From an uncultured Verrucomicrobiota bacterium (GTDB lineage Bacteria; Verrucomicrobiota; Verrucomicrobiia; Limisphaerales; CAIYYI01), in the NCBI GenBank assembly GCA_903930345.1, contig CAIYYI010000230.1, forward strand, positions 9,689 through 73,688: a stretch of 64,000 bases of DNA, given 5' to 3'. Under the pieces are notes generated by a model that worked only from the letters and a program-made list of their open reading frames with translations, was not told where the DNA came from and searched no databases. The position numbers and the translations under genes were made by a program. This document shows, piece by piece, positions 1 to 13,395 of the stretch (its first letter is position 1; every line of letters begins with the position of its first letter).

Positions 1-756
1 GGTGCCCTGCTGCAGCGCCATGTCCGACTCCTGCCGGTTGTAGCTGTCGAGCATGTAGGATAGGCTGGTGCTGGCGTTGTTCTGGCGTTCATTCTGCATG
101 TCAAAGGCCAGAGTGCTTTCCCGTAGTGTGCTGGGGCGGGTGAAACCGGTGATGTCTTCCTCCAGGCGGGTGTAGTTCACGTGAAAGGGTAGGACCCCCT
201 CCGTGTAGCCGATCTGCCCGCCGTAACGCCGGTTGTCCACCGTCACGCGGTTGAAAAAGTCAAACTGGCGGAAGTTATGGTCCTTTTCCGCAAATATTCT
301 GGTTGCATACGGCTTTTCCTGAAGCAGTTGCAAGGATGTCTGGTATCGTTCCAGAAATCTGATTTTGGACTCCGTGCCAGAAAGGGTCAGGCCTACCGGC
401 TGATTTATGCTTTGCTGCTGCCAGCTCAGGCCATCCTCCAGCCTGACGTTGAACAGGGCCAGGTTGGGATGGTAGATGGAACCCTGCATGCCCAGATTCA
501 GCATGGGGGCCACGTACAAATAGCTGCGCTCCATGGTGCCCGGGCTGTCTTTGCGGCTGCGTATCTCTTTTTCCCCCTCCACTTCCAGTCCCAAACTGGT
601 CTCCGTGAATTGCATCCGCATCCACTGGAACTGATCCTCTTCCTCAGGCGGTTGCGCTGGGGCAATCACCACCGCATTGACCAGGAATGCCAGACACAAG
701 CTGAACCACCTTCGCCGCCACGCATTGGTTGCTGGCCTTTTCATTCTGAAGGTCAT
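1..756 (-). CDS. Putative outer-membrane beta-barrel/porin-like protein (porin-cytochrome complex type); partial, runs off the window edge
   Basis: Not in the ORF track. ATG at 756-754 overlaps the TGA of the NHL gene (ATGA coupling). The frame stays open to position 1: MTFRMKRPATNAWRRRWFSLCLAFLVNAVVIAPAQPPEEE...LNLGMQGSIYHPNLALFNVRLEDGLSW...LQLLQEKPYATRIF...GQIGYTEGVLPFHVNYTRLEE. It has a signal peptide and alternating amphipathic beta-strand-like segments. Confidence 0.75.
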   Translation of the reverse strand, partial: MTFRMKRPATNAWRRRWFSLCLAFLVNAVVIAPAQPPEEEDQFQWMRMQFTETSLGLEVEGEKEIRSRKDSPGTMERSYLYVAPMLNLGMQGSIYHPNLALFNVRLEDGLSWQQQSINQPVGLTLSGTESKIRFLERYQTSLQLLQEKPYATRIFAEKDHNFRQFDFFNRVTVDNRRYGGQIGYTEGVLPFHVNYTRLEEDITGFTRPSTLRESTLAFDMQNERQNNASTSLSYMLDSYNRQESDMALQQGT

Positions 757-1919
757 TGGCTCTGCCCGAAACCATAGACGCTGACTTTCCTGCTCCCGTA
801 CTGGTTGACGGCCAGAACCAGATACTCCAGCTTGAAGTTGGGGGCGGCATATTTCTGGAAGTAAGCCAGATGATCGTAATCGATGATGACCTGGGTGGGC
901 AGATCAAGCGGGACTGCACTCCCGCCGCTTTCGCCGAAGAACATCAGGACCTGCCCCTCCGGATTGAAAATCTGGATCACCTGGGCGGCGGCGTCCACCA
1001 CGTAGAGTCGTCCTTCACGGTCCACCGCCACGCCCTTGGGCCGCGCAAATTCCCCGGGCCGATCCCCTGAGCGTCCATAGGCGCGCAGGAATTTTCCCTC
1101 CGCGTTGTATTTTTTGACGAAAAAACCACCCATGTCAGACACGTACAACTGGTTCTGGGAGTCCAGAGCCAGGTTGGCGGGGGCGAATAATTTGGCCGAT
1201 GCATCCTGTCGGTCGCGTGGGATCTGAAACAGTGGTTGACGGTTGGTCTTGGTGTACACCTGAACGCAGTTGTTGTTCAGATCCGTCACATAGAGGCGAT
1301 CGCTCGAAATCGCCACATCCGTGGGCCAGATGGGCTTGAGTGTTCCTGGCGTTGCCGCAGCATTCGTTTGCCATTTGGCATCCCCTGCCGATTTCTCCCC
1401 GATGGCACCCAACAACGTTTCGTCAGTCGCGAAAATGAGGATTTGATTGTGGCCGCGGTCCGCCACATAACGGGTGCCGTCCTGATCCAGGCGGATGTTG
1501 ATCGGCGTGTGCAGGAACTTGTCGATCGTCGAATCAAGGTAGTAGAGTTTCCTTAGCCCCAGATCCAAAATGGAAATGCCGCGGCGGCCGGTGTCGCTGA
1601 CGAAGATTTTTCCGTCCCACAAGGCCAGTCCATAAGGCTTGAACAGTGACCGTTTGGGCGCTTCCTTTCCCACCAGGAACCGCGCAAATTTGTTCGGGGC
1701 CGCGCCCAAGTCCCCGTCATCGGAAAAGCTGGTCAAATACTGCAGGCGTGGTTCTGCGGGTGCCGGGGGGTAGAATATGGGCGCGGCGACCGGAGTTTTC
1801 TTTTTTGCGCCCGGTTTGGCTTCGGCTGCTGGCAAAGCCTTGGGTTGGATCAGACCAAATGACAAGACCGCGACCACAAGCCATCCGGTCAGCCGCTGGC
1901 TGATTTTGGGTGTTCTCAT
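753..1919 (-). CDS. NHL-repeat beta-propeller protein, exported
   Basis: Signal peptide followed by repeated P-x-(G/N/D)-(L/V/I)-A-(L/V)-D...(L/I)YV-x-D motifs (e.g. FARPKGVAVDREGRLYVVD). ATG at 1919; the track's start at 1922 is TTG. Confidence 0.9.
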   Translation of the reverse strand: MRTPKISQRLTGWLVVAVLSFGLIQPKALPAAEAKPGAKKKTPVAAPIFYPPAPAEPRLQYLTSFSDDGDLGAAPNKFARFLVGKEAPKRSLFKPYGLALWDGKIFVSDTGRRGISILDLGLRKLYYLDSTIDKFLHTPINIRLDQDGTRYVADRGHNQILIFATDETLLGAIGEKSAGDAKWQTNAAATPGTLKPIWPTDVAISSDRLYVTDLNNNCVQVYTKTNRQPLFQIPRDRQDASAKLFAPANLALDSQNQLYVSDMGGFFVKKYNAEGKFLRAYGRSGDRPGEFARPKGVAVDREGRLYVVDAAAQVIQIFNPEGQVLMFFGESGGSAVPLDLPTQVIIDYDHLAYFQKYAAPNFKLEYLVLAVNQYGSRKVSVYGFGQSQ

Positions 1920-2047
1920 CAAGGTTTTAGCAGAGTCGTTAAGATTCTCTGGGGCAGTATCCTAGGAGGGTTACTGCATCCGGGCGCACGAGTTTGCGAT
2001 AGTGTTCTTGAGTGCTTGATCACGTCGTTGCAGTGGCATGTTAAACC

Positions 2048-2086
2048 GGGGGAAGAGGGTGGCCAACTATGCCACCCTCCCCCCCC
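2048..2086 (-). terminator. GC-rich stem-loop downstream of the tetraheme cytochrome gene (partial terminator or mRNA-stabilising hairpin)
   Basis: GAGGGTGGC-caactat-GCCACCCTC, extended by G/C runs. Only a short T run follows on the minus strand. Confidence 0.45.
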
Positions 2087-2135
2087 TCGATCAGAGAGGT
2101 AATTCGCCGAAAACAACCGGTATTGTCAGCCCCGG

Positions 2136-2771
2136 TTACTTGATGTGGCATTTCAGGCACAGCGCGCTGCCAGTGTTTGCCATGCGTAGAAAGGGAGGGA
2201 ATTCATTGTTGTGGACCTGGTGGCAGGAAGCACATTCTACTTTGCCCGCAAACAGCGGAACCTTGCCTAGAGCATCCACCTTGCTGGCCGAGGTTGGTGA
2301 GACCAAGGCTCCATCGTCGCCAGCCAGTTTGGCATCGTAGAGAAAGGAGATGGGGTGGTCATTGGATAAATCGGTTCCCACCACGTTGGTGCCGGTCATG
2401 GGCGGTTGGGTTCCACTTTTTCCGCCAAACGAATCCATGGCGACCGTGCCATCATGGCAGCTCAGGCAGAGTTTGGAGGAACTGCTCGGAGAGCCAACGA
2501 CTGCGTTTAGCGTCGGGCTGACCGTGGCATCATATACCTTGAATGCGACCGTCGATGTCACTTTGTGGTTCCACAAAGGAGCATCCTTGACGGTGGTATC
2601 AGAATTGTGCGGCGTGTGGCAGAAGATGCAGAGTTCATCGGTGCCCCAGCCTTTGACCGAGAGATCGTGCTTGGTGCCAGATATGCCTGCCGCCGCCTGC
2701 AGGGCGGTGGGGGTTGCTGCCAGCAGCGCCAAGGCTGCGGTTAACATCAATAATTGCTTTACGTTTTTCAT
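2136..2771 (-). CDS. Tetraheme c-type cytochrome, OmcE-like (cytochrome nanowire family)
   Basis: Signal peptide and four CxxCH motifs (CIFCH, CLSCH, CASCH, CLKCH). The motif string TKHDLS..CxFCHTPHN..PLWN..CxSCHDG..GTDLSNDHP..PLF..ECxSCHxVHxN..PFLR..GSxLCLxCHxK matches the G. sulfurreducens OmcE sequence as recalled. Confidence 0.85.
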   Translation of the reverse strand: MKNVKQLLMLTAALALLAATPTALQAAAGISGTKHDLSVKGWGTDELCIFCHTPHNSDTTVKDAPLWNHKVTSTVAFKVYDATVSPTLNAVVGSPSSSSKLCLSCHDGTVAMDSFGGKSGTQPPMTGTNVVGTDLSNDHPISFLYDAKLAGDDGALVSPTSASKVDALGKVPLFAGKVECASCHQVHNNEFPPFLRMANTGSALCLKCHIK

Positions 2772-2816
2772 ACTTGGATTGGGTTTTGGTTCGGTTGAAT
2801 CATGCTGATGCTGAGA

Positions 2817-3326
2817 TTACGGTGCTTGTTTGGGGCGGGTTCGCGGTGCGCGTTTGGCTGGCTTCGGTGCGGTTTTTTCCACGGTTTGTGCATGGCAACG
2901 GGCTTCGGTCCGCTTGTCCAGACCGGCAATGCCGTTGGTAATGACTTCCGCCAGAGTGGCGTTCGTCATTGCTTCACGAAGCCGTCCTTTGGTTTCTGTC
3001 CAGAGGTCATGGGTGGGACAGATATGTTGTGAGTTGCACTCCCTCAGGCCCAGCAGGCACCCGCCCAACCATGATTTTCCCTCCACCGCCTCCACGATCT
3101 CTATCAAGGCGATGTCTTCCGCTGGCCGCGCCAGACCAATGCCGCCGCTGTGCCCTCGTTTGGTGGTCACCAAGTTCTTTTTGGTCAACAGGTTGATGAT
3201 TTTGGCGAGGTATGGCTTCTGAATGCCCGTGAGGTCCGCCACCTCCCGGATCAATAGAACCCGGTCGGTGCTCAGACAACTGAGCGCGTGGATGGCATAG
3301 CCGGTGGTTTGTGACAAGCTAAGCAT
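2817..3326 (-). CDS. Rrf2-family transcriptional regulator with IscR-like Fe-S ligands
   Basis: Winged-HTH Rrf2 pattern (YLAKII..L...LV...RG.SGG..LARPAEDI.L.EIVEAVEG) and C-x6-C-x5-C-x2-H (CLLGLRECNSQHICPTH). Confidence 0.9.
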   Translation of the reverse strand: MLSLSQTTGYAIHALSCLSTDRVLLIREVADLTGIQKPYLAKIINLLTKKNLVTTKRGHSGGIGLARPAEDIALIEIVEAVEGKSWLGGCLLGLRECNSQHICPTHDLWTETKGRLREAMTNATLAEVITNGIAGLDKRTEARCHAQTVEKTAPKPAKRAPRTRPKQAP

Positions 3327-3357
3327 GTTGACTCGTGCCTTTAAATACCAAAGAGGA

Positions 3358-3395
3358 CTTGATTATCAAGATTAAAGATGATAAATCCGTCATCT
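3358..3395. promoter_or_regulatory. Candidate operator palindromes in the divergent rrf2/cytochrome promoter region
   Basis: CTTGAT-T-ATCAAG (3358-3370) and AGATGA-N8-TCATCT (3376-3395) in an AT-rich intergenic region, 30-70 bp upstream of the rrf2 start. Confidence 0.45.
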
Positions 3396-3527
3396 AACGA
3401 CACTGTGATCCAAACTTTGCTGAAGCTGGCGGTAAACGCGTGACATCCTATGCTTCCATTGCACCGGTTGAAACGGGCTTAACTGAGCCTCGTCCGGGGA
3501 AACCATTCGCTTAAACATAAGACACAC

Positions 3528-5999
3528 ATGTTGAGGCAGATTTCATTCCATCGTCTCGTTAGCCGACCGTCTTTCCCGTCCCTGTTCTTGTTTCTGACCC
3601 TGGTCATGGTCAGCCTGGTGGTTGCCAGTGACCCTCCTCACGACGAGGATTGTGTAGCGTGTCACCTGACCCACAACTCCCTCGGGGGAGGTTTGGGGAG
3701 CGTGGCGGGCAATGCCAATTTGTGCATCAGTTGCCACAATTCGAAGGGAACGGCTTCCGCCAAGTCCTTTGCGGACAGCCAACAGGCCTTGTCCTGGCCA
3801 GGTCTTCCGGTGGGAACCAACGCCATGGGGACATCTCACCGCTGGGATGTGGGCATGGTCGGTCGCATTCAATTTTTGGGAGGTGCGGCGATACGTTCCA
3901 CCGGAACCATCAAGCCAGCCGGTTCATACACTGGGGTTTATCCAAAAACCTACACCCTCACGATTGCCACCGCCGGGAATGTGAATGGGGCCCGTTTCAA
4001 TTGGTCGGCCACCACCCCCGGGGGGGGGAGTGGAGCTCTGGTTCTGGCCCGAGCCAACGTGACCTTGAACGAGGGGATCTTCGTTTCCTTTAGTAACAGC
4101 GTTGATGCTGTTAACGCGTTTCAGGTGGGCGACACATGGAACATCTACGTGCGATCTGATCTTCGCAATCCGACCAATTCGGCCATGTTGACCCGGTTGG
4201 ATAATGGCCGGGTCACTTGTTCCACCTGCCACGATGCGCACAGTCAGGCCGATGCGCCCTTCGACCCCAAAGCCCCGGCCTATGCCGGGGTGGGCACGGG
4301 GACCGGACGGCATTTCATGCGCATCAGCAACAACGTGGAACAAATGTGCGTGGATTGCCATGCCGTGCGGAATGTGACCAATTCCGTTGCCGGTTCGCAT
4401 CCGGTGGGCATGGTGTACGCCACCAACGCCTTCTACAAATTCACCACCAATCTGCCGTTGGAAAAAGTGACCGGCAAAATCAGGTGTCTCACCTGCCACA
4501 AGATCCATTTTGCCCCCTCCAACGATGGTGATCTGCTGGTGATGACCAATGCCACCGCCATGTGTGCCGAATGCCACACCCTGGCCGACCGAACCTCTCC
4601 GGCAGTCCACCTCAGTGCCACGAATGGAATGACCCTTTGGCCCGGTGGCCAATATGGTGGCACTTTCCCACAGCGCACCAACGCGAGCGATCGGGGCAGT
4701 TGCATGAATTGCCATGATCCCCACGGGTGGCCGGATACGGCGAATCCCACCACCCATTACCCCAAGCTGCTCGTGGATCAGGAGGAAAACCTCTGCTATG
4801 CCTGCCACGATGCCAATGGACCGGCCCTGAAGAATGTGAAGGATGATTTTGCCAAAGCCAGGCGGCATCCGATCGGGGATTCCGATTCCCTTCGCCGGGC
4901 CGGGCGCTCGGTTGAATGCAGTGATTGCCATAACACCCATCGGGCCATGGTTGGATCGCATGTTTATACCAATACCGCCACCGCCACCCGGAACCTCATT
5001 AGCAACCCGCTCAAAGGGGTGTCGGGTGTGTCGGTGAATTACACCGGTTTGGGGAATTTTGTGGCCCCCACAACGAATCTGTACACGGCTATCCCCAAAT
5101 CGGTGGGGGCCACCTACGAGTACCAGATTTGCTTCAAGTGCCATACCGCCTATTCATTCGGGAGCACACCCCCTCCGGGACTTTCCCCTGTTTACAGCAC
5201 CGGGACGGCCTCGTTCACCACCGGATCAACCAACGTCGTCGGTGCCTCCACAACTTGGAGGGCATCCATGGTGGGAATGTGGATCGTGCTGACGAGTGAT
5301 CCAACCAATGCCTATCGCATAACGGTGGTGACCAGCACCACCAGCATGACGGTGACCCCGGCCTTTGCGGGTGCCTCGGTTGCCGGCCAGGCTTACACCA
5401 TCGTGGGCGGAACCGACGTGGCCCAGGAGTTCAGCCCCATGAACCGGTCGGGGCACCCGATCATGACCGGCCTGGACAACTATCCCAATTCCACTGCTGT
5501 TTCAGGCAAAAAAGGGCTTTTGGCTGCGGCCTTGAAGGTGCCGTGGAACAGCAGTATTGGTCAGCAGACGATGATGTGTTCTGATTGCCACAACACCGAT
5601 GGGGCCTCCCCGGCAGCGCAGGGACCGCATGGGTCAGCCGCGCAGTATATGCTGCGGGGGGCCAACGCTGCCAATTGGCCCAATATCACCCTGGCGAATT
5701 TTAACACCAGTTGGTGCGCCAACTGCCACAACAACGCCGCTGGTTCTACCCACACCCGGGGCGACCACACCGGCCGGCAATGTTACCAATGTCACATCGT
5801 GATTCCGCACGGCGGCAAGCTTTCCCGGCTCATGGCGGATCATGACACGATGCCTGGTCGATATGCCTATAACGGCACCACGAACAATCAGTACATGCAA
5901 AGTTTCACCAAAGCGACGACTGGCGGGTATGGGGAAAGCAATTGCAAGGCGCAATGTGCCAGCGAACACAGAAATCGAACGCCATCCGAAAACTGGTGA
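3528..5999 (+). CDS. Large exported multiheme c-type cytochrome (13 CxxCH)
   Basis: Signal peptide; CVACH, CISCH, CSTCH, CVDCH, CLTCH, CAECH, CMNCH, CYACH, CSDCH, CFKCH, CSDCH, CANCH, CYQCH, plus a terminal CKAQCASEH. Confidence 0.93.
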   Translation: MLRQISFHRLVSRPSFPSLFLFLTLVMVSLVVASDPPHDEDCVACHLTHNSLGGGLGSVAGNANLCISCHNSKGTASAKSFADSQQALSWPGLPVGTNAMGTSHRWDVGMVGRIQFLGGAAIRSTGTIKPAGSYTGVYPKTYTLTIATAGNVNGARFNWSATTPGGGSGALVLARANVTLNEGIFVSFSNSVDAVNAFQVGDTWNIYVRSDLRNPTNSAMLTRLDNGRVTCSTCHDAHSQADAPFDPKAPAYAGVGTGTGRHFMRISNNVEQMCVDCHAVRNVTNSVAGSHPVGMVYATNAFYKFTTNLPLEKVTGKIRCLTCHKIHFAPSNDGDLLVMTNATAMCAECHTLADRTSPAVHLSATNGMTLWPGGQYGGTFPQRTNASDRGSCMNCHDPHGWPDTANPTTHYPKLLVDQEENLCYACHDANGPALKNVKDDFAKARRHPIGDSDSLRRAGRSVECSDCHNTHRAMVGSHVYTNTATATRNLISNPLKGVSGVSVNYTGLGNFVAPTTNLYTAIPKSVGATYEYQICFKCHTAYSFGSTPPPGLSPVYSTGTASFTTGSTNVVGASTTWRASMVGMWIVLTSDPTNAYRITVVTSTTSMTVTPAFAGASVAGQAYTIVGGTDVAQEFSPMNRSGHPIMTGLDNYPNSTAVSGKKGLLAAALKVPWNSSIGQQTMMCSDCHNTDGASPAAQGPHGSAAQYMLRGANAANWPNITLANFNTSWCANCHNNAAGSTHTRGDHTGRQCYQCHIVIPHGGKLSRLMADHDTMPGRYAYNGTTNNQYMQSFTKATTGGYGESNCKAQCASEHRNRTPSENW

Positions 6000-6041: not shown

Positions 6042-7976
6042 ATGATCGGCACTGCAAAGCGATTCCTGCGTTCGCCCCGCGTCATTGTGGCCGAGTTGGC
6101 CGGTCTGGCGCTGTTGTGCGCGCTGGGTGCCAGTCTGCCGCAGTCCGGTACGGCTACCCCGGCCGAACTCGCCCGTCTGCATGAAAGTGGCCCGTTCGTG
6201 GTGGCGCTGGTTGAAACCTTCGCGCTGGACCACATTTTTCGCAGCCCCCTTTTCATGGCGCTGACGTTGCTGTCCGCCGTCTCACTTCTCGTCATCGTCA
6301 TCGGCCAGGTGAAACGGCTTCGATCACAGTGGTTTCAGCGGCTTGGCCCCGCCCAGTTTCAGTCGGCTCCGTTCCGGGTGCAGTTTGAACGGCCAGCCAG
6401 GTTGCCCTTGGGCCAGGCGACCACCAAGGTGTGGTCGAAAAACCGCCTCGGTTTGGCTGGCTCAGCCATCTTCCATACCGGGCTGCTGCTTGTCATGCTG
6501 GCCGGGGTTTTGCGCGCTCTGTTTGGGGCGGATGCGGTCGTTGATCTGTTTGAAGGGGAGACGCTGCCTCCGACGGCCCGGGCGTGGGCGGCCCAATGGC
6601 CAGGCCTTCTGGCCAGGCCCGTCCAATTTGAGGAATCGTTGACGCTCAACCGGGTCCACGTTTCCCGCTATCCCTCCGGGGATCTGAAGGAGTTGACGGT
6701 CAACCTTGAGGCGCGCCGTCCGGAAGGCGTTGAAAAGGTCGATCTGGCGGTGAATCATGATGCTCACCTTGCGGGCCAGCGTCTTTTTCTCGGCCGCGAG
6801 TTCGGCCCAACGGTTTTTGTTGAGTGGCAGAACCACGGCGGGTCCTCTGCCCGGCAGGCCGTGCTGCTCGCGCCAGGGAACGAGGGCGTCTTTGAGGGTT
6901 GCTCCATCGGCCCGGGCAATTTGCGGGCTTACTTGCGGACCGTGGGCCGGTCGGCCGGCGACCACCCCACCACGGTGGAGGTGCGCGTGATGAAGGACAA
7001 TGCCCTCCTGTTTTCCGGGGATACGCGGGTTCAGGAATCCGTCAGCCTGTTCGGCGGGGACCGGCTGGTGTTGCATGGGGCTGCCTTCTGGGCCCGCCTG
7101 CGCGGCAGTCGTGATGGCGCGCTTTGGCTGGCTTACACCGGTTTTGCCCTGGTTCTGGCGGGCATCACCCTCATTTTTTGTGTGGTCAGGGTGGATGGCT
7201 GCCTGGTTGTCACCCCGGCGGGAGACTGGGAATCGGTTTTTCTTGCCGTGCGACCGCAGCGTTTTTCTGCAGCTTACGGTGATTATTTTCGCAGTCTCGT
7301 GCGCCAACAGGGGGGGGATCCCGGAACGGAGCTGCCACCAGGTGCCGCTCCGGCGCGTTCCCCTGATGCGGCCAAGGTTCCCACACCGATGGATGGTCCG
7401 CCGCAGCGCTCCCCGGTGGAATTAAGCGGGGCAACGCCCCGCCTGGCTGCCTGGATTTTGCTCGGGGTTTGTCTGGCTGCCCTGCCGGGATGTCAGCGGT
7501 CTTCCATGAAGGAGGCCCGGCAGCTGGTGGAGCGCTATAATCAGGTGGTGTCTGAAGCCTATCGGCGCGGGGATGTCCGGCTGATTGATCCGGTCGTTGG
7601 CCCCAATGAGGGACGGAAGCTGACCGGGTTGATCGGGGTTCGCACCGATCTGGGTATCACCTTGGATTCCCGGCTGCTCTCCCTCCTGGTCACCCATGTG
7701 GATGTGGTGGCGGACGAGATGCGGGTGCACACGAAGGAGCGGTGGCATTACCGTGATCTCAGGATCGGCACGGGCCAGCAGGTGGGGGAGGAATCACTCG
7801 ATGCCTATGAGATGCTCTACATTTTCAAACGCATCGACAAGGCGTGGCTGGTGGACGAGATTAAGTTTGCCTCGCCGCCGCAGGTGGGCCGCAAGAAAAC
7901 CCCCTGGGTTGCGGATCGCCAGGACGCGCACGCTTTGGGTGGCCCGTCCCAGGGCGGGGAGGGGAGACAGCCATGA
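6042..7976 (+). CDS. resB: Cytochrome c biogenesis ResB/CcsB-like protein fused to a C-terminal lipoprotein-like domain
   Basis: N-terminal TM helices with GASLPQ, IFRSPLF and IFHTGLL (conserved His), a large soluble domain, then TM DGALWLAYTGF. A Pro-rich linker and a hydrophobic stretch ending in LAALPGC follow. The gene sits directly before ccsA. Confidence 0.75.
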   Translation: MIGTAKRFLRSPRVIVAELAGLALLCALGASLPQSGTATPAELARLHESGPFVVALVETFALDHIFRSPLFMALTLLSAVSLLVIVIGQVKRLRSQWFQRLGPAQFQSAPFRVQFERPARLPLGQATTKVWSKNRLGLAGSAIFHTGLLLVMLAGVLRALFGADAVVDLFEGETLPPTARAWAAQWPGLLARPVQFEESLTLNRVHVSRYPSGDLKELTVNLEARRPEGVEKVDLAVNHDAHLAGQRLFLGREFGPTVFVEWQNHGGSSARQAVLLAPGNEGVFEGCSIGPGNLRAYLRTVGRSAGDHPTTVEVRVMKDNALLFSGDTRVQESVSLFGGDRLVLHGAAFWARLRGSRDGALWLAYTGFALVLAGITLIFCVVRVDGCLVVTPAGDWESVFLAVRPQRFSAAYGDYFRSLVRQQGGDPGTELPPGAAPARSPDAAKVPTPMDGPPQRSPVELSGATPRLAAWILLGVCLAALPGCQRSSMKEARQLVERYNQVVSEAYRRGDVRLIDPVVGPNEGRKLTGLIGVRTDLGITLDSRLLSLLVTHVDVVADEMRVHTKERWHYRDLRIGTGQQVGEESLDAYEMLYIFKRIDKAWLVDEIKFASPPQVGRKKTPWVADRQDAHALGGPSQGGEGRQP

Positions 7977-8800
7977 CCCCATTTACCCGGGAGGTTATCC
8001 TCCACTGGAGCGCCGTGGCTTTGTACATCGCCGGCACCATTGGTTTTGCCTACGCTCTGATCTTTGCCCGGCCCGAAAAGGTGAGGGGGGCTCTGTGCGT
8101 GACGGCGGCCGGCCTGGTGCCGCACACGCTGGCGCTCGTCCTCCGCTATGTTCGGGTTGGCCATGGCCCTTACATGCTCAAGTACGAGGTGCTTTCTTCC
8201 AATGCCTGGATCGCCATCGCCATGCTGCTGCTGTTTGTCTGGCGGCGGCCCGCCTGGGCATCGGTGGCGCTCATCGCGTTGCCGGCCTCCATCCTGATGA
8301 TGGGGTTGGGATTGTTCACCAACCCTGAGGCCCGCAGTCTCCCCCCCTCGTTGCGCTCGCTCTGGCTGGTGTTCCATGTGCTCTTCAACAAGCTTGCAGT
8401 GGGCGCATTCGTGCTCGCGCTCGCCTCGGCGGTGGTGCTGCTCCGGAAGCTCCGGGGTGCCACCGGTCGGTGGTTGGATCGTTTGCCCGGGTCCGAGGTG
8501 GTCGAGGTCTATATGGTCCGTTTCATTGGTTTCGGCTTTGTTTTTTGGACCACTACCATCGGGGCCGGGGCCATCTGGGCCAACCAATCGTGGGGCCGTT
8601 ATTGGGGCTGGGATCCCATTGAAACCTGGTCCCTCGTCACCTGGCTGGCCTACGCCATTTTGCTGCACGCCCGCCTGTTTTTCCGGCTGGGTGGCCGTGC
8701 GACGGCCTGGGGCACCGTGGCCTGCTTTGTTCTGTCCATCCTGACGGTGCTGATTTTCCCCTTTGTATTTCCGTCCATGCATTCCGCCTATTTCCAATGA
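7973..8800 (+). CDS. ccsA: Cytochrome c biogenesis protein CcsA/ResC (system II heme lyase)
   Basis: WWD motif WANQSWGRYWGWDPIETW, conserved His in WLVFHV, LLHAR and SMHS, multiple TM helices, and an ATGA overlap with resB. Confidence 0.93.
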   Translation: MTPFTREVILHWSAVALYIAGTIGFAYALIFARPEKVRGALCVTAAGLVPHTLALVLRYVRVGHGPYMLKYEVLSSNAWIAIAMLLLFVWRRPAWASVALIALPASILMMGLGLFTNPEARSLPPSLRSLWLVFHVLFNKLAVGAFVLALASAVVLLRKLRGATGRWLDRLPGSEVVEVYMVRFIGFGFVFWTTTIGAGAIWANQSWGRYWGWDPIETWSLVTWLAYAILLHARLFFRLGGRATAWGTVACFVLSILTVLIFPFVFPSMHSAYFQ

Positions 8801-10242
8801 TGAAACCGCGCCCCGAAATATTGCTGGTGACCCCCCCGTACCATTCGGGCGTGGTGGAGTCGGCCGGCTCCTGGCTGCCGCTGGGGCTGCTTTACGTGGG
8901 CGGGGCTCTGCAAAAAGCGGGCTTTGGGGTGGCGCTCTACGACGCCATGACCCGGTTCGACACGCTGGATCAGGTCCGGGCCACCTTGCGCCGGGAACGG
9001 CCGGATGCGGTCTTCGTTTCCTGCATAACGGCCACGGTTCTCGATGGCATTGAGGTTTGCCGGGTGGCGAAGGAGGAGGCCCCCGGCACCCTTACGGTCC
9101 TGGGCAACACCCATCCGAGTTTCATGTACGAGGAGATTTTGCGGGAGTATCCCGAGGTGGATGTCATTGTGCGCGCTGAGGGCGAAGAGACGTCGGTGGA
9201 GCTTATGCAGGCCTGGCAGGCGGGGGCTGATCTTTCTCGGGTCAGTGGCATCGCCTTTCGCCGGGATGGCCGGGCTTTTGCCACGCCTCCCCGCTGTTTC
9301 ATTGCCAACCTCGACCCGCTGGAGCCAGCTTGGGATCTGGTGCCATGGAAGGAGTACAGTTACCGGCCCAAACCCGGATCGACTTTGGCCGTGGTCTCCT
9401 CCTCCCGGGGCTGTAAGCAACATTGCTCTTTTTGCTCCCAACGCCTGTTCTGGAAGGAGTCATGGCGCGCGGTTTCCGCCGCTCGTTTTGTGGATCAGCT
9501 CGAGATGCTGCGGTCGCGTTACGGCGTCGATGTGGCCATGATTGCCGATGAGATTCCGTCCGTCGATCCCGTGCGCTGGAGCCGGATCCTGGATTTGTTG
9601 ATTGAGCGCGATATGGGCACTTCCCTGATGCTCGAGACGCGGGTCGAGGACATCATCCGTGATGCCGCTTTGCTTCCCCGGTATCGCCAGGCGGGCATTG
9701 AGCACATTTACGTGGGCGTCGAATCGGTCAACCAGGCCACGCTCGATTTGTTCAAGAAGGACGCCAAGGTTGAACAGGGCAAGCGCGCCATTGAGCTGAT
9801 CAATGAGCACCAGATGATTTCCGAGACCTCCTTCGTCATGGGCATGCCCGATGAGACCATCGAAAACATGCAGCACACCATTGAGCTGGCCAAGTTTTTC
9901 GATCCCGACATGGCCTTTTTCCTCGCCATCACTCCCTGGCCTTACGCGGATCTGTACCAGGATGTGAAGGATCACATCGCCACGCGGGATTATCGCAAAT
10001 ACAATCTGGTTGAGCCGGTCATCAAACCGGTCTCCATGTCGCTTGATGATGTGCGGGAGCAGCTTTTCCGGGGGTTTCGCGAGTTCTACCACAACAAGAT
10101 GAAAGGCATGGCCGCCATGCCGCCCTGGAAACAGCAGTTCATGAAAACCCTGATGAAGCTGCTGATGGAACATTCCTATCTGAAGGATCAGATGGCGGGC
10201 CTGGGTCATCCACTGCCGGAGCACCCTGGCCCTGGAGCTTGA
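8797..10242 (+). CDS. Cobalamin-binding radical SAM enzyme (class B methyltransferase/BchE-like fold)
   Basis: N-terminal B12-binding domain (PLGLLYVGGAL..GNTHPS..DVIVRAEGEET), SRGCKQHCSFC (CxxxCxxC), GVES and GMPDET. ATGA overlap with ccsA. Confidence 0.9.
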   Translation: MMKPRPEILLVTPPYHSGVVESAGSWLPLGLLYVGGALQKAGFGVALYDAMTRFDTLDQVRATLRRERPDAVFVSCITATVLDGIEVCRVAKEEAPGTLTVLGNTHPSFMYEEILREYPEVDVIVRAEGEETSVELMQAWQAGADLSRVSGIAFRRDGRAFATPPRCFIANLDPLEPAWDLVPWKEYSYRPKPGSTLAVVSSSRGCKQHCSFCSQRLFWKESWRAVSAARFVDQLEMLRSRYGVDVAMIADEIPSVDPVRWSRILDLLIERDMGTSLMLETRVEDIIRDAALLPRYRQAGIEHIYVGVESVNQATLDLFKKDAKVEQGKRAIELINEHQMISETSFVMGMPDETIENMQHTIELAKFFDPDMAFFLAITPWPYADLYQDVKDHIATRDYRKYNLVEPVIKPVSMSLDDVREQLFRGFREFYHNKMKGMAAMPPWKQQFMKTLMKLLMEHSYLKDQMAGLGHPLPEHPGPGA

Positions 10243-10248
10243 GGCGCA

Positions 10249-12015
10249 ATGAACAATCGCCATCAATGTGTTATGCATGACCATACTAAAACGGCCAGGC
10301 CGTTCGGGATGACTCCGCCAGCCGGGGCACGGCTTCTCTTTGCAAACCGGGTTTCGGCTTTCAGCCGGCTGCTCCGCGCCGGGTGCTGCCTGGTGGTTTG
10401 GCTCTTCTCGGCAGCCTCAATGCGCGCTGAGACCCCCTTGGTGGCTTCCTTGGGCGCGTATCGCGGGAGCCTCCAGGCCCCTGCCTGCGTCGCTGCGGAT
10501 GCGGCTGGGTACCTTTATGTCACGGACCCTCAGGCCGGCCAGGTGGTGGTATTCGATGGTTTTGGGCGGGTGGCGCAGGTCGTTCCCGGCTTCTCCGGTC
10601 CGCTGGGAATCGCTTTGGATGCCAATGGGCAGATTTATTTGTCGGAAGCGGCAAGCGGCAGTGTGACCGTCTTTGATGCCCAGTGGCATCCCCTGTACAA
10701 GCTCGGTGGCGGCGACCATGAGTTCCTCTTGCCAAACTACCTGGCCTTGGATCCCGCCCCGGGCAGTGCGGCGGTTTATGTTTCGGACAGCAAGGCCAAC
10801 CTGATCAAGGTTTATCGTGCCGGAGCGTTTGATTTCAGTTTTGGCGGCAAGGGCACCAATGATGGGCAGTTCAATTTCCCCACCGGTTTGCACCTCGCCG
10901 CCAATGGTGAGGTTTTTGTGGTGGACCAGAACAATGAACGCGTTCAGGTCTTTGGCCGGAGCGGTGATTTTCGGCGCTCATTCTCCTTGGTGACCCCGCT
11001 TGGTGGAATGGGGTTGGGTTCGGCTGGGGGGCGTTCTCAGGGCATCACCGGTGACCCATTGGGGCGTCTTCTGGTGGCAGATTCCTTTCAAGGTTTTGTG
11101 CGGGTGTTTGATGCGCAGGGCAATTATCAGGGACGCTTTGGTGGACTGGGGGAATTGCCCGGCCAGTTTGGCACCCCGTTGGGGTTGGTCATGGATGGGT
11201 GTGGCCGGCTTTTTACCGCTTCCGCAAACAATGGGCGCGTGGAGGTTCTTGGTCTGGACGGCTTCGCGCAGTTCAGCGCTGTCCCTGCCCAGCAGGTGGT
11301 TTGTGCCGGCACCAACGTTGCGTTTTCGGTGACCGTCACCAACCCCGGTGTCTGCACTTTCCAATGGCGCAAGGGCGCCAGTCCATTGGGGGATGGGGGT
11401 GTTGTTTCCGGAGCCACTGGCCTGGTGCTCAATCTTGTCGGCGTTTCTCCGGCGGATAGTGGGCAGTACTCCGTGCAGGTAACCGGGCCGGGGGTGGATC
11501 TGACCAGCCCGGCGGCAAATCTCACCGTGCTTCTCCCGCCCACCATTCTCAGCTTTTCGTCCAGCCAGACGGTGATCTTTGGCACCAACGTCACTTTCGC
11601 TGTGGGTGTCCTGGGGGAGGCCCTGTCCTACCAGTGGTTCTTCAGGGGGTATCCGATGGATGGGGCCACGGGTTCATCCCTCACGCTGCTCAACGTCCAG
11701 CCCGACCATGCTGGGGCCTATTCTGTGGAGGTGAGGAATTCGGTGGGGGCGGCGGTGAGTCCGGTGGCGCAGCTTGCTGTCCTGGTTCCGCCCGGCCCGC
11801 CGAAAATCGAATCCAGCATCCTCCTCCCGGGTGTGGGTGTGCAGCTCACCATCAATGGTGATATGGGCTACTCCTTCTGGATTGATGGAGCGAACAATCT
11901 TGCGGATTGGGTGGCCTTGACGAACATCGTCAATGAAACCGGGTCCCTGGATGTCGTGCTGCCGTTGTCCACGAATTTTCCGAACCAGTTTTACCGTATG
12001 CGCTGGATGCCGTGA
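10249..12015 (+). CDS. Exported NHL-repeat protein with two Ig-like domains and a C-terminal FYR module
   Basis: NHL repeats (GQFNFPTGL..EVFVVDQNNERVQVF), two Ig domains (FQWRKG..DSGQYSV; YQWFFRG..HAGAYSV) and a C-terminus NQFYRMRWMP. The start codon is uncertain. Confidence 0.85.
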   Translation: MNNRHQCVMHDHTKTARPFGMTPPAGARLLFANRVSAFSRLLRAGCCLVVWLFSAASMRAETPLVASLGAYRGSLQAPACVAADAAGYLYVTDPQAGQVVVFDGFGRVAQVVPGFSGPLGIALDANGQIYLSEAASGSVTVFDAQWHPLYKLGGGDHEFLLPNYLALDPAPGSAAVYVSDSKANLIKVYRAGAFDFSFGGKGTNDGQFNFPTGLHLAANGEVFVVDQNNERVQVFGRSGDFRRSFSLVTPLGGMGLGSAGGRSQGITGDPLGRLLVADSFQGFVRVFDAQGNYQGRFGGLGELPGQFGTPLGLVMDGCGRLFTASANNGRVEVLGLDGFAQFSAVPAQQVVCAGTNVAFSVTVTNPGVCTFQWRKGASPLGDGGVVSGATGLVLNLVGVSPADSGQYSVQVTGPGVDLTSPAANLTVLLPPTILSFSSSQTVIFGTNVTFAVGVLGEALSYQWFFRGYPMDGATGSSLTLLNVQPDHAGAYSVEVRNSVGAAVSPVAQLAVLVPPGPPKIESSILLPGVGVQLTINGDMGYSFWIDGANNLADWVALTNIVNETGSLDVVLPLSTNFPNQFYRMRWMP

Positions 12016-12075
12016 GCAGTGATGATGCAATGTTTTAATATTGACACTCGGTTAACTAATAATAACGCTAAAGCT

Positions 12076-13395
12076 ATGAACCTTGGCAAATCCTCTGTCT
12101 TTGTCACCAAAGACCTTCTGACCAATAAGTTCCCCCTCGCTTCTATTACAATGGTTTTCGCTGCCCTGCTGGGGGTCAGTCTTCCCGCGCTGGGTCAGTC
12201 TGATCAGACCTATGGTTTTGTTGGTTTCGCTGGCTTCGCTGGCTCACCTGGCAGTCTTGATGGCGAGGGCAGTGCCGCACGATTCAACTTTCCCGCCGGG
12301 GTGGCCTTGGATATTTCCAGCAACTTGGTGGTGGCGGATTTTGGCAATCACACCGTTCGGATGGTCTCCTCCGCTGGTGCGGTGACGACTCTGGTGGGCA
12401 CCGCAGGGATTTCCGGCACCAACAATGGGACGGGCGGTGCCGCCCGGTTCAATCATCCCTTCGGCGTGGCTTTGGACCGCAGTGGGAATATTTTTGTGGC
12501 CGATTCGGACAATCATACAATTCGGAAAGTGACTCCCGCCGGGGTGGTCACAACGCTGGCGGGAAGTGCCGGTACTTCCGGCACCAACGATGGGGTCGGC
12601 CTTGCCGCCTTGTTCAGCCATCCTTTCGGTTTGGCGGTGGATGGGGCGAATAATATCTTTGTGGCCGATTCCGACAATCACACTATCCGGAAGATAACCC
12701 CGGCGGGCGTGGTCACGACTTTTGCGGGCAGCCCGGGGATGCCAGGAGCCATTGATGCTGCAGGAGGCGATGCGAGGTTCAATCACCCCTCTGGCGTGGC
12801 TGTGGACAGTCAGGGTAACGTGATGGTGGCGGATAAAGGCAATTTTACGATTCGGCGGGTGACCACGAATGGGGTGGTGACCACTCTGGCCGGATTGGCG
12901 GGTTATTATGGTCGGATGGATGGAACGCGCAGTGTGGCGCGTTTTTATGATCCGTCGGGGGTGTCTGTGGATGCCGCAGGCAACGTGTTTGTGTCGGAAT
13001 TCGGTAACACGATCCGGAAGGTGACCCCGGCCGGGACGGTGTCGAGTTTGACAGACGGCGCCGGCCCGCTTGATGCACCCCAGGCTGTGGCTGTGGATGC
13101 TGCCGGCGTTCTTTTTATCGCCGATTCCTTGAACAATCGCATTGTCAAAGGTCGGCTCGGTGGGTTCGGTGGGATCTCGCCATCGTTGAGGGTGGCTCTC
13201 TCCGGCGGTCGCGCCAACGTGTCTCTATCCTGGCCCCCAAGTCACCTCGGCTGGGAACTGCAAATGACGACCAACTTGTCCGGCGGGGGGCTCACCACCG
13301 CTTGGACTCGCGTGGTCGGCTCCACTGGCGGCACCAACTTTTCCCTGCCCAATAACCCAGCCAATCCCGGCTTTTATCGGCTAAAAAGTCCGTAG
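12076..13395 (+). CDS. Exported long-repeat NHL (teneurin-like) protein with a C-terminal FYR module
   Basis: About five ~55-aa repeats (G.G.AARFNHP.G(V/L)A.D..GNIFVADSDNHTIRKVTPAGVVTT.AG) and a C-terminus GWELQMTTNL..W..GFYRLKSP. ATG 12076 was chosen because it lies downstream of a TTGACA at 12041. Confidence 0.85.
   Translation: MNLGKSSVFVTKDLLTNKFPLASITMVFAALLGVSLPALGQSDQTYGFVGFAGFAGSPGSLDGEGSAARFNFPAGVALDISSNLVVADFGNHTVRMVSSAGAVTTLVGTAGISGTNNGTGGAARFNHPFGVALDRSGNIFVADSDNHTIRKVTPAGVVTTLAGSAGTSGTNDGVGLAALFSHPFGLAVDGANNIFVADSDNHTIRKITPAGVVTTFAGSPGMPGAIDAAGGDARFNHPSGVAVDSQGNVMVADKGNFTIRRVTTNGVVTTLAGLAGYYGRMDGTRSVARFYDPSGVSVDAAGNVFVSEFGNTIRKVTPAGTVSSLTDGAGPLDAPQAVAVDAAGVLFIADSLNNRIVKGRLGGFGGISPSLRVALSGGRANVSLSWPPSHLGWELQMTTNLSGGGLTTAWTRVVGSTGGTNFSLPNNPANPGFYRLKSP

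What the first reader, a model, noticed from the sequence alone, without database searches (positions are those of the whole stretch)
2136..2771. OmcE-like tetraheme cytochrome, a candidate conductive nanowire subunit outside Geobacter
Seen: 211 aa, a signal peptide, four CxxCH motifs and four extra His in KHDLS, TPH, NDHP and QVH, enough for all-bis-His ligation. The final heme motif lies two residues from the C-terminus. Established: G. sulfurreducens OmcE is a tetraheme cytochrome that polymerises into filaments, and its recalled motif order (TKHDLS, CxFCHTPHN, PLWN, SCHDG, GTDLSNDHP, PFLR..GS.LCL.CH.K) is reproduced here. Inference: this protein polymerises.
Basis: partly seen in the sequence, partly recalled or inferred. 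Interest (0 to 1): 0.82.

Follow-up and report, generated by a model that had tools for sequence, protein, structure and literature searches.

The report
OmcE-type cytochrome nanowire gene cluster
A small four-haem protein in a Verrucomicrobial genome is a clear relative of the building block of known bacterial "nanowires" and sits beside matching outer-membrane genes, so it probably builds a conductive filament of a kind already described in other bacteria.

Summary
Window 2136-2771, on the minus strand, encodes a 211-aa secreted protein with four CxxCH motifs. It matches both solved OmcE filaments over its full length: 7TFS at E=1.3e-30 and 9YUQ at 2.2e-26. All eight haem-ligating His are kept, so the one that reaches into the next subunit is kept too. 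A ninth His (H69) sits where solved OmcEs have Arg and is probably not a ligand.

The gene lies in one operon: Rrf2 regulator, OmcE-like subunit, NHL propeller, 675-aa beta-barrel (AF2 pLDDT 86.8), NHL propeller, then an 11-haem cytochrome. ResB/CcsA and a 13-haem cytochrome lie alongside. The contig is Verrucomicrobiota.

Polymerisation is inferred, not shown. The monomer fold was poor. This cluster's barrel is not detectably related to that of a canonical Geobacteraceae omcE cluster.

OmcE nanowires outside Geobacter, and OmcE-like cytochromes in Verrucomicrobiota, are already in print. This scan also noted the same kind of cluster on other DNA (e1-2834212). Verdict: new member of a known kind.

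Most interesting by-product: the 11-haem cytochrome begins with a complete OmcE-like module. All 16 haem-binding Cys and His are invariant in 49 of 49 such proteins. It is a candidate base or cap of the wire.

The parts
2136..2771 (-). OmcE-family tetrahaem cytochrome c, 211 aa (P0001): candidate major subunit of a cytochrome filament
   Evidence: ORF and translation. PDB matches: 7TFS E=1.3e-30, 9YUQ E=2.2e-26, both full length. In alignment A1, 8 Cys and 8 His are invariant in 27 of 27 sequences. They are near-invariant in 94 small homologues.
2048..2086 (-). 16-bp G+C-rich stem-loop about 50 nt after the stop codon: possible attenuator or mRNA stabiliser that raises subunit output relative to downstream genes
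   Evidence: Arms 2048-2063 and 2071-2086. The 75-nt fold is -39.7 kcal/mol, z=-4.5, with 0 of 200 shuffles as stable. Only a weak U tract follows, and the consensus terminator scan did not list it. Hairpins of -25 kcal/mol or stronger follow 32 of 89 small-subunit genes, against 11 of 195 other cluster genes.
2817..3326 (-). Rrf2-family transcription regulator, 169 aa, directly upstream in the same orientation
   Evidence: Pfam Rrf2 9.4e-28. NCBIfam rrf2_super is above its cut-off; IscR, RirA and NsrR models score below theirs. The sequence carries C-x6-C-x5-C-x2-H, which resembles the IscR-type Fe-S ligand pattern; that pattern is recalled, not tested. The closest relative locus L004 has the same Rrf2-then-subunit order.
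753..1922 (-). NHL-repeat beta-propeller protein 1, 389 aa, signal peptide without a lipobox Cys
   Evidence: Pfam NHL 2.4e-22. tblastn finds a homologue beside the small subunit in 72 of 80 related loci.
1..756 (-). N-terminal 252 codons of a 675-aa outer-membrane beta-barrel. The gene runs off the window start to contig position C230:8417
   Evidence: Length. No Pfam or NCBIfam hit. AF2 with 24 homologues: pLDDT 86.8, pTM 0.73, signal helix then about 30 long beta-strands. Foldseek hits are all large outer-membrane barrels; the best TM-score is MtrB 6R2Q_B at 0.43/0.44. The protein ends in Phe, as do 30 of 37 homologues; 3 more end in Trp.
3528..5999 (+). Divergently transcribed 823-aa multihaem cytochrome with 13 CxxCH motifs
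   Evidence: Motif count. Pfam Paired_CXXCH_1, Cytochrome_C7 and MtrC/MtrF II-IV domain. Near full-length relatives appear only in L054 (45%) and L016 (56%, partial).
6042..7976 (+). ResB-like cytochrome c biogenesis protein (System II)
   Evidence: Pfam ResB 5.6e-21. resB/ccsB also flank canonical omcE clusters.
7973..8800 (+). CcsA/CcsB-type cytochrome c assembly protein
   Evidence: Pfam Cytochrom_C_asm 2.2e-32.

Best explanation
The gene encodes the major subunit of an OmcE-type extracellular cytochrome filament in a Verrucomicrobiota bacterium (subdivision 3, Pedosphaera-like).

Proposed mechanism, with shown and inferred steps marked:
1. The Sec signal takes the apoprotein to the periplasm (inferred from the sequence).
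2. The adjacent System II ResB/CcsA attaches four c-type haems (gene presence shown; role inferred).
3. Each haem is bis-His ligated. One distal His reaches into the neighbouring subunit, so subunits join head to tail into a continuous haem chain. This is shown for OmcE in the literature. Here only the conservation of every ligand is shown.
4. The 675-aa beta-barrel and the two NHL propellers export or anchor the wire (fold and synteny shown; role inferred).
5. The 11-haem cytochrome has an OmcE-like module as its first ~210 residues. It, the 13-haem cytochrome and a 1325-aa cytochrome b/23-haem membrane protein carry electrons from the quinol pool to the wire (inferred).
6. An Fe-S-type Rrf2 regulator and a strong hairpin after the subunit gene set expression and stoichiometry (inferred).
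For: Homology to solved filaments. P0001 matches 7TFS (confirmed as OmcE) at E=1.3e-30 and 9YUQ at E=2.2e-26. I take 9YUQ, a 16-chain entry, to be the D. soudanensis bundle; no call confirms this. P0001 scores 96 bits against 9YUQ. A bona fide Geobacteraceae OmcE orthologue scores 99 bits against it. So P0001 is about as far from one solved filament-former as an OmcE orthologue is.

Ligands. All 8 Cys and 8 His are invariant in 27 of 27 close homologues. In 94 small homologues each is kept in 85-94. 90 of 94 end exactly two residues after the last CxxCH, which points to a constrained C-terminus.

Gene context. The cluster holds Rrf2, the subunit, NHL, a barrel, NHL, an 11-haem cytochrome, a 13-haem cytochrome and ResB/CcsA. 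These are the gene kinds listed for OmcE clusters.

Conserved synteny. 31 of 79 related loci of at most 20 kb hold small subunit, NHL, barrel and 11-haem cytochrome together, in order sNBNG or NGsNB, across at least 8 phyla. The 's-NHL-barrel' core order also occurs in a canonical Geobacteraceae cluster.

Expression signal. Strong hairpins follow small-subunit genes far more often than other cluster genes: 32 of 89 against 11 of 195.
Against: No experiment, and no successful computation, shows polymerisation for this protein. The AF2 monomer was unusable (pLDDT 42.7).

Both solved OmcE filaments come, per the paper's description, from clusters between resB/ccsB and ffh with the order MHC-MHC-NHL-OmcE-NHL-barrel. 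The cluster here has a different order. Its barrel family shows no detectable profile similarity to the 761-aa putative barrel of such a cluster (hhalign probability 0.3). That was one profile against one sequence, so it is a weak test. Its large cytochromes are only 23-24% identical to the canonical ones.

Identity to a Geobacteraceae OmcE orthologue is only 34%, with 17% gaps. The paper itself warns that OmcE-like tetrahaem sequences are widespread and that not all need form wires. NHL1 has no lipobox Cys, whereas the paper speaks of propeller lipoproteins.
Confidence: 0.6

Rival explanations
1. The tetrahaem protein is the non-polymerising (or only short-oligomer) outer-surface component of a porin-cytochrome conduit. 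The 11-haem cytochrome threads the 675-aa barrel as MtrA threads MtrB. The small cytochrome docks on its OmcE-like module at the cell surface, as MtrC does, and passes electrons to humics, Fe(III) or shuttles without forming a long wire.
For: The best structural match of the barrel model by TM-score is MtrB of the Mtr complex (6R2Q_B, 0.43/0.44). The large cytochromes give partial hits, below cut-off, to DmsE/MtrA-family decahaem models (51 and 63.5 bits against a cut-off of 192). The barrel is not detectably related to the canonical omcE-cluster barrel. Verrucomicrobial porin-MHC clusters have been read as Mtr-like conduits in print. An OmcE-like module is fused to a larger cytochrome in 49 proteins. 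So this fold can work as a fixed single copy.
Against: TM-scores of 0.44 or less show only the general class of large barrels. A monomer would leave one haem with an open axial position and one distal His spare, yet all eight His are conserved. The strictly fixed C-terminal length (90 of 94) and the enrichment of hairpins behind the small gene fit an abundant, repeating subunit better than a 1:1 partner. Both homologues examined experimentally form filaments.
Confidence: 0.28
2. It is a soluble periplasmic tetrahaem electron carrier (cytochrome c3/STC-like) that merely shares haem-binding motifs with OmcE.
For: Pfam and NCBIfam name only generic families: Paired_CXXCH_1, cytochrome c3 and c7. 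Public annotations call its relatives 'cytochrome c3 family protein'. A Sec signal alone gives periplasmic delivery.
Against: The similarity to OmcE runs the full length, including the non-haem segments TKHDLS, PLWN, GTDLSNDHP and PFLR, at E=1.3e-30. No c3 or STC structure reaches E<0.5. The tight, phylum-spanning linkage to a barrel and propellers is not expected for a soluble shuttle.
Confidence: 0.08
3. It is not a real gene: a chance ORF, or a mis-binned contig from a Geobacter-like organism.
For: The genome is a draft of 709 contigs with 5.9% estimated contamination. The overlapping plus-strand ORFs 2177-2521 and 2350-2808 exist.
Against: Thousands of homologues exist: 7274 of the 8000 candidates scored have E<=1e-5. 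AspRS on the same contig has its named best hits in Verrucomicrobiae and Pedosphaera, 7 of 11 organism-named hits. The closest relative of the subunit (63%) and of its neighbours lies in a Verrucomicrobia MAG.
Confidence: 0.01

Closest known systems
OmcE of Geobacter sulfurreducens (PDB 7TFS), tetrahaem nanowire subunit
   Same: Full-length sequence homology (E=1.3e-30). Four CxxCH motifs and four distal His in the same order. The chain ends two residues after the last haem motif. A signal peptide is present. Neighbouring NHL propellers, a large barrel, multihaem cytochromes and resB/ccsB are all present.
   Different: About one third identity: 34% to a Geobacteraceae OmcE orthologue. It is about 20 residues shorter, through loop deletions. 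It has His instead of Arg in PLWN[R/H]. The gene order differs, the barrel is not detectably homologous, and the host is a different phylum. No glycosylation gene block was seen in the Pfam calls on the window; that was not searched systematically.
OmcE of Desulfuromonas soudanensis WTL (mBio 2026, PMC13712944; probably PDB 9YUQ)
   Same: E=2.2e-26 over the full length. Tetrahaem, with the same conserved His. It belongs to the set of OmcE homologues that have a porin and propeller nearby.
   Different: The bundle-forming loops are not conserved even among OmcE homologues, so bundling cannot be inferred here. Linking 9YUQ to this paper is my inference from the 16-chain entry and its molecule name, not a call result.
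OmcS of G. sulfurreducens (PDB 6EF8), hexahaem nanowire
   Same: Same assembly principle according to the literature: one haem is ligated by a His of the adjacent subunit, and the haem chain is insulated, with parallel and T-shaped pairs.
   Different: No sequence similarity: OmcS did not appear in the PDB search even at E<=10. Six haems rather than four.
MtrCAB / porin-cytochrome conduits
   Same: A large outer-membrane barrel is encoded next to multihaem cytochromes. The barrel model's best TM-score is to MtrB.
   Different: TM-score is only 0.43-0.44, with 9% identity. The cytochromes fall far below the MtrA/DmsE family cut-offs. Mtr clusters hold no NHL propellers and no OmcE-like subunit.
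Verrucomicrobiota EET3/EET4 porin-multihaem clusters (bioRxiv 10.64898/2026.05.27.727921) and the 'novel porin-MHC' of He et al. 2017 (PMC5615132)
   Same: Same phylum, including the order Limisphaerales. These are porin plus multihaem cytochrome clusters, and a figure legend mentions 'OmcE-like' predicted structures with 8-13 haems.
   Different: I saw passages only. Figures and supplements were not visible, so I cannot tell whether their clusters are this one. Neither text mentions a tetrahaem polymerising subunit. He et al. wrote that OmcE/OmcS homologues were not present in their MAGs.

Membership tests
OmcE-family nanowire cytochrome (7TFS, 9YUQ) | Significant full-length sequence similarity to a solved OmcE filament subunit | tested here: met
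   7TFS: E=1.3e-30, query residues 9-211 against chain 10-232. 9YUQ: E=2.2e-26, query 5-211 against chain 2-218.
OmcE-family nanowire cytochrome (7TFS, 9YUQ) | Four CxxCH haem-binding motifs in one chain of about 200-230 aa | tested here: met
   4 CxxCH motifs, no CxxxCH or CxxxxCH.
OmcE-family nanowire cytochrome (7TFS, 9YUQ) | Four conserved distal His, one of which ligates a haem of the adjacent subunit | tested here: met
   H35, H55, H139 and H187 align with His of 7TFS and 9YUQ. They are invariant in 27 of 27 sequences. WHICH of them crosses the interface could not be determined: the OmcE paper was not held and no coordinates were available.
OmcE-family nanowire cytochrome (7TFS, 9YUQ) | Assembly into a filament with a continuous, insulated haem chain | not testable with these tools
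   This needs cryo-EM or a haem-complete multimer model. The AF2 monomer without haem was unusable.
OmcE-family nanowire cytochrome (7TFS, 9YUQ) | Secretion signal | tested here: met
   By reading the sequence only: n-, h- and c-regions with ALQA-AA. The model has a helix at residues 2-17. No dedicated predictor was run.
OmcE gene cluster as described in PMC13712944 | Large outer-membrane beta-barrel encoded nearby | tested here: met
   675-aa protein. AF2 pLDDT 86.8, all-beta. Foldseek hits are large outer-membrane barrels only. However, no detectable homology to the 761-aa protein at the same place in a Geobacteraceae omcE cluster.
OmcE gene cluster as described in PMC13712944 | Two beta-propeller lipoproteins | tested here: inconclusive
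   Two NHL propellers are present, 27-33% identical to those of Geobacteraceae clusters. A lipobox-like LGGGC occurs only in the second one (L003:7330-8415). The first has no Cys after its signal. Both points are by eye.
OmcE gene cluster as described in PMC13712944 | Two multihaem cytochromes in the cluster | tested here: met
   A 579-aa protein with 11 CxxCH plus 1 CxxxCH, and an 823-aa protein with 13 CxxCH. The C-terminal part of the first is distantly similar to the 371-aa cytochrome of a canonical cluster (23%, E=2e-8, same C-terminal end).
OmcE gene cluster as described in PMC13712944 | Adjacency to resB/ccsB haem maturation genes | tested here: met
   ResB at 6042-7976 and CcsA at 7973-8800. 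The other flank genes named in the paper (purHDE, ffh) were not looked for.
MtrCAB-type porin-cytochrome conduit | MtrA/DmsE-family decahaem cytochrome and an MtrB-family barrel | tested here: not met
   TIGR03508 scores 51 and 63.5 bits against a cut-off of 192.2. The barrel has no Pfam or NCBIfam family. TM-score to MtrB is 0.43-0.44.

The most novel reading that the evidence does not exclude
The conserved 11-haem cytochrome of this cluster (579 aa, L003:5594-7333, just upstream of the window) may be the missing base or cap of OmcE-type wires.

Evidence:
- Its first ~210 residues are a complete OmcE-like module. It matches 7TFS at E=1.8e-28. All 8 Cys and 8 His are invariant in 49 of 49 such proteins.
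- These modules form one old clade, 49 plus 1 rows, support 99.
- Free subunits end two residues after haem motif 4 (90 of 94). This protein instead continues covalently into a seven-haem domain.
- It could therefore join the polymer through the usual His-haem contact at one face only. That would fix the wire's polarity and wire it to the barrel or periplasm.
- In six Geobacteraceae genomes, picked because one search showed separate matches to the two halves there, the two halves are separate adjacent genes. In canonical omcE clusters only a distant relative of the seven-haem half is present. This is a Rosetta-stone hint that the half contacts OmcE itself.

The 2026 mBio paper asks what anchors or caps the wire, and states that no OmcE-like candidate with extra haems is encoded in OmcE operons.
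Probability: 0.3. Interest if true: 0.7.

Novelty: new member of a known kind. Interest (0 to 1): 0.42.

Why it matters
[quoted passage not shown] This is a common soil and freshwater phylum not known for electroactivity. It is outside the five phyla listed for cluster-associated OmcE homologues. DNA near-identical to this stretch was found in lake-water metagenome runs of one study.

The cluster type seen here (small subunit-NHL-barrel plus NHL-11-haem cytochrome) recurs in Bacteroidota, Calditrichota, Ignavibacteriota, Kiritimatiellota, Acidobacteriota and others. Cytochrome wires may therefore be much more widely spread than the cultured Desulfuromonadia suggest.

Within the sampled phylum the cluster is rare, 3 of 401 genomes including this one. 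That points to patchy, probably horizontal, spread.

The fused OmcE-like module gives a concrete, testable candidate for how such wires are anchored or terminated.

Tried and rejected
1. AF2 of the subunit with a 27-row alignment gave mean pLDDT 42.7 and pTM 0.36. This is unusable, as expected for a mostly coil protein held together by haems, so it was not sent to a fold search.

2. Complex prediction with two copies (residues 27-211) plus four haems returned 'no answer': score 0.19 against a mark of 0.42, and controls were not run. It counts neither for nor against binding. Only 4 of the 8 haems could be supplied.

3. I could not identify WHICH His crosses the subunit interface. The OmcE paper (PMC9357133) and Baquero et al. 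(PMC10330847) are not held. Passages of five other papers state the principle without residue numbers, or say nothing.

4. H69 as a ninth haem ligand or 'anchor' signature, an idea prompted by the mBio remark that an anchor would have nine His and four haems: rejected. The position is His in 81 of 94 small subunits, including a Geobacter sp. MAG. It is Arg in both solved OmcEs. In the fused modules it is R 32, H 9, K 6, Q 2. It is a basic position, probably facing a propionate (inference).

6. The sigma-70 promoter scan of 1700-3700 found 0 sites. The terminator scan found 3 against 2.2 expected, none of them the hairpin.

7. Pfam, NCBIfam and the protein atlas gave no name for the barrel. The atlas gave only hypothetical-protein clusters and a weak Porin_4 lead at 0.89.

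8. Earlier-findings look-up by place returned nothing for this genome.

9. Supplements and figures of the cited papers could not be seen. Fig. 3D and 4D of the mBio paper and Fig. 3C and 4 of the peat preprint may already show this cluster type or the fused cytochrome.

10. I found no statement of the fused OmcE-like module in searches for 'OmcE-like', for OmcE+propeller+nanowire, for GSU0616/GSU0618 and for OmcP+OmcO. Those searches cover only the held library.
Full report
OBSERVATION. The ORF at window 2136-2771 is real but lies on the minus strand: ATG start, 211 aa. The plus-strand reading of the same span is broken by stops. The protein (P0001) has a signal-like N-terminus, by my reading of the sequence. 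It has four CxxCH motifs, at C48, C102, C180 and C205, and the last His lies two residues before the stop. It has nine His in all. Five lie outside the motifs: H35, H55, H69, H139 and H187.

WHAT IT IS. Pfam and NCBIfam name only generic haem domains: Paired_CXXCH_1 at 48.7 bits, plus cytochrome c3 and c7. A search of all PDB sequences is decisive. The two best hits are 7TFS (E=1.3e-30, residues 9-211 against 10-232) and 9YUQ (E=2.2e-26, a 16-chain entry). The next hit is at E=0.57. A 2026 review confirms that 7TFS is the G. sulfurreducens OmcE filament. I take 9YUQ to be the Desulfuromonas soudanensis OmcE bundle of the 2026 mBio paper. That link is my inference.

All eight axial His of OmcE align with His here. 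The literature says that one haem of OmcE is completed by a His of the adjacent subunit (passages only). I could not find which residue that is, because the OmcE paper is not held.

As a yardstick, consider a genuine Geobacteraceae OmcE orthologue: L097, 231 aa, E=7.9e-42 to 7TFS, in a ResB-CcsA-MHC-MHC-NHL-OmcE-NHL-761aa cluster. It scores 99 bits against 9YUQ, and P0001 scores 96. P0001 is 34% identical to that orthologue.

THE NINTH HIS. The mBio discussion suggests that a filament 'anchor' might have nine His and four haems, so I checked H69. In 94 small homologues from this genome and 80 related loci the position is His in 81 and Arg in 3. In 49 fused modules it is R 32, H 9, K 6, Q 2. 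Both solved OmcEs have Arg there. It is a basic position, not a conserved ligand, so I reject the anchor reading for P0001.

SURROUNDINGS. The window starts inside the cluster, so I fetched the contig upstream. The minus-strand order is:
- Rrf2 regulator (2817-3326)
- the subunit
- a 16-bp GC hairpin (2048-2086; -39.7 kcal/mol, z=-4.5)
- NHL propeller 1 (753-1922)
- a 675-aa protein running off the window start
- NHL propeller 2 (361 aa, LGGGC lipobox-like)
- a 579-aa cytochrome with 11 CxxCH and one CxxxCH
- a 1325-aa protein

Divergently, on the plus strand, lie an 823-aa cytochrome with 13 CxxCH, ResB, CcsA, a B12-radical SAM protein and two more NHL proteins.

The 675-aa protein has no family in Pfam or NCBIfam. 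With 24 homologues AF2 gives pLDDT 86.8 and pTM 0.73: a signal helix followed by about 30 long beta-strands. Foldseek returns only large outer-membrane barrels: TonB-dependent receptors, LptD, the FimD usher and MtrB. TM-scores are at most 0.44. It ends in Phe, as do 30 of 37 homologues; 3 more end in Trp.

So the gene kinds that the mBio paper uses to single out nanowire-competent OmcE homologues are all here. Those kinds are a large barrel, beta-propellers, two multihaem cytochromes and resB/ccsB.

WHOSE GENOME. AspRS on the same contig has 7 of 11 organism-named best hits in Verrucomicrobiota (Verrucomicrobiae, Pedosphaera) at 84-85% identity. The RpoB fragment on another contig gives 4 of 5. 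The closest subunit relative (63%), with the same Rrf2-subunit-NHL order, is in a Verrucomicrobia MAG. In a sample of 401 genomes of the phylum, only 3 including this one match the family profile at E<=1e-15. The own genome holds a single cluster.

HOW WIDESPREAD.
- The family is very large. 7274 of 8000 scored candidates have E<=1e-5.
- In the best 80 loci, tblastn finds an NHL propeller in 72 and the barrel in 46. Many contigs are short.
- 79 loci passed my blastp thresholds. Of these, 31 hold small subunit, NHL, barrel and the 11-haem cytochrome together, in order sNBNG (as here) or NGsNB.
- Their phyla are Bacteroidota 8, Calditrichota 5, Verrucomicrobiota 5, Ignavibacteriota 3, Thermodesulfobacteriota 3, Pseudomonadota 2, Kiritimatiellota 1, Acidobacteriota 1 and unknown 3.

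The mBio paper names five phyla: Thermodesulfobacteriota, Pseudomonadota, Aquificota, Campylobacterota and Nitrospirota. A 2026 peat preprint describes porin-multihaem clusters in Verrucomicrobiota and mentions OmcE-like predicted structures (passages only, figures unseen). He et al. 2017 wrote that OmcE/OmcS homologues were not present in their Verrucomicrobia MAGs. This scan had already noted an OmcE-family cluster on other DNA (e1-2834212).

DIFFERENCES FROM THE CANONICAL CLUSTER. The family that holds the Geobacter sp. MAG of L060 shows three arrangements.
- Type A is ResB-CcsA-MHC371-MHC329-NHL-OmcE-NHL-761aa. It fits the paper's description.
- Type B is NHL, a 298-aa OmcE-like protein, then a 387-aa cytochrome.
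- Type C is the arrangement found here. At least 14 of 81 genomes have a full-length 11-haem protein.

I looked at six genomes chosen because they showed split matches. All six have both type A and type B.

The type A 761-aa protein shows no profile similarity to the barrel family here (hhalign probability 0.3). That was one profile against one sequence, so it is a weak test. The type A MHC371 aligns with residues 193-579 of the 11-haem protein at 23% identity (E=2e-8) and shares its C-terminal end. The core order small-NHL-barrel is common to types A and C. The system here is thus a variant arrangement of the same component kinds. It is not the arrangement from which both solved filaments come. 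This is the main reason my confidence in polymerisation is 0.6 and not higher.

THE FUSED MODULE.
- The first ~210 residues of the 579-aa cytochrome match 7TFS at E=1.8e-28. They are 51% identical to P0001 in the genome search; tblastn gave 43-44% over a gapped alignment.
- Across the loci, 49 proteins of about 540-700 aa carry a full OmcE-like module at the N-terminus. 47 have 11 CxxCH and 2 have 10. All 16 Cys/His positions are invariant in 49 of 49.
- These modules form one starred clade, 49 plus one small protein, support 99.
- The L060 Geobacter version matches 7TFS at 6.6e-29, better than that locus's free small subunit does (9.6e-16).
- 90 of 94 free subunits end exactly two residues after the last CxxCH. 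In the fused protein the chain continues there into a seven-haem domain.
- In type B the two halves are separate neighbours.

Together this suggests that the seven-haem domain touches an OmcE-like unit, and that the fused protein can join a polymer at one face only. That would make it a base or cap. The mBio discussion poses exactly this open question and says no such candidate is encoded in OmcE operons. I found no mention of the fusion in the held library, but I could not see figures or supplements.

STOICHIOMETRY HINT. I scored the most stable 50-nt window within 150 nt downstream of each stop codon. It reaches -25 kcal/mol or lower behind 32 of 89 small-subunit genes. The figures for other genes are 2 of 48 11-haem genes, 8 of 109 NHL genes and 1 of 38 barrel genes. 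Medians are -20.2 against about -15. The one-sided Mann-Whitney p is 1.6e-9, overstated because the loci are related. A hairpin behind the major subunit gene is what one expects if it must be made in large excess. That is an inference by analogy with pilus operons, which I recall rather than tested.

WHAT FAILED. AF2 of the haem-less subunit was unusable. The two-copy complex job returned no verdict. No RNA run holds the stretch.

VERDICT. The protein is a genuine OmcE-family member in a complete, conserved barrel/propeller/cytochrome cluster of a Verrucomicrobiota genome. Polymerisation is likely (0.6) but unproven. The kind of system is known, so this is a new member of a known kind with moderate interest. 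The fused OmcE-like module of the 11-haem neighbour is the part most worth following up.

Noticed in passing
L003:5594-7333 (-), i.e. contig C230 just upstream of window position 1: A 579-aa cytochrome with 11 CxxCH motifs. Its first ~210 residues are a complete OmcE-like module (7TFS E=1.8e-28). It is conserved as a fusion in 49 proteins across many phyla, and split into two adjacent genes in six Geobacteraceae genomes.
   Followed up: yes
L003:1606-5583 (-): A 1325-aa ORF that joins three parts: a DUF6079 P-loop N-terminal region (residues 1-483, only the first 472 of 1238 profile positions), a cytochrome b561/FdhC-like membrane domain (484-677) and 23 CxxCH motifs. The whole architecture recurs at 46% identity over residues 1-1254 in an Opitutae MAG, next to its OmcE-like gene (L023:5909-9658). 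It is possibly the quinol-side entry to the pathway. The role of the ATPase-like domain is unexplained.
   Followed up: partly
window 8797-13395 (+): Downstream of ResB/CcsA lie a B12-binding radical SAM protein (481 aa), an NHL+Ig-domain protein (588 aa) and a third/fourth NHL propeller (458 aa). This may be an extension of the cluster, perhaps for cofactor or protein modification.
   Followed up: no
window 15197-21493 (+): A 2098-aa ORF with no Pfam family at E<=1e-5. Next to it is a CotH-kinase-like gene (13625-15118, minus strand).
   Followed up: no
related loci, e.g. L008:15834-16592, L017:16518-17180, L050:10679-11464, L066:999-1670: 15 of 94 small OmcE-like proteins carry five CxxCH motifs. 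This is the five-haem variant that the mBio paper flags as a possible new nanowire family. None is present in this genome.
   Followed up: partly
L096:8254-10247 and the equivalent places in L098, L101, L102, L104, L106: In Geobacteraceae, a second OmcE-like locus holds an NHL gene, a 298-aa OmcE-like protein with a ~17-residue C-terminal tail, and a 387-aa cytochrome homologous to the C-terminal half of the fused protein. From memory this may be the omcP-omcO pair of G. sulfurreducens. That was not verified.
   Followed up: partly
window 2817-3326 (-): The Rrf2 regulator ahead of the subunit gene carries C-x6-C-x5-C-x2-H, close to the IscR-type Fe-S ligand spacing (recalled). This hints at iron- or redox-responsive control of the wire genes.
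   Followed up: no
phylum-wide: Only 3 of 401 sampled genomes of the phylum, this one included, carry the family at E<=1e-15, and neither of the 2 sampled genomes of the same order does. Yet nine Verrucomicrobiota MAGs are among the best 80 loci. The distribution is patchy and suggests horizontal spread.
   Followed up: partly
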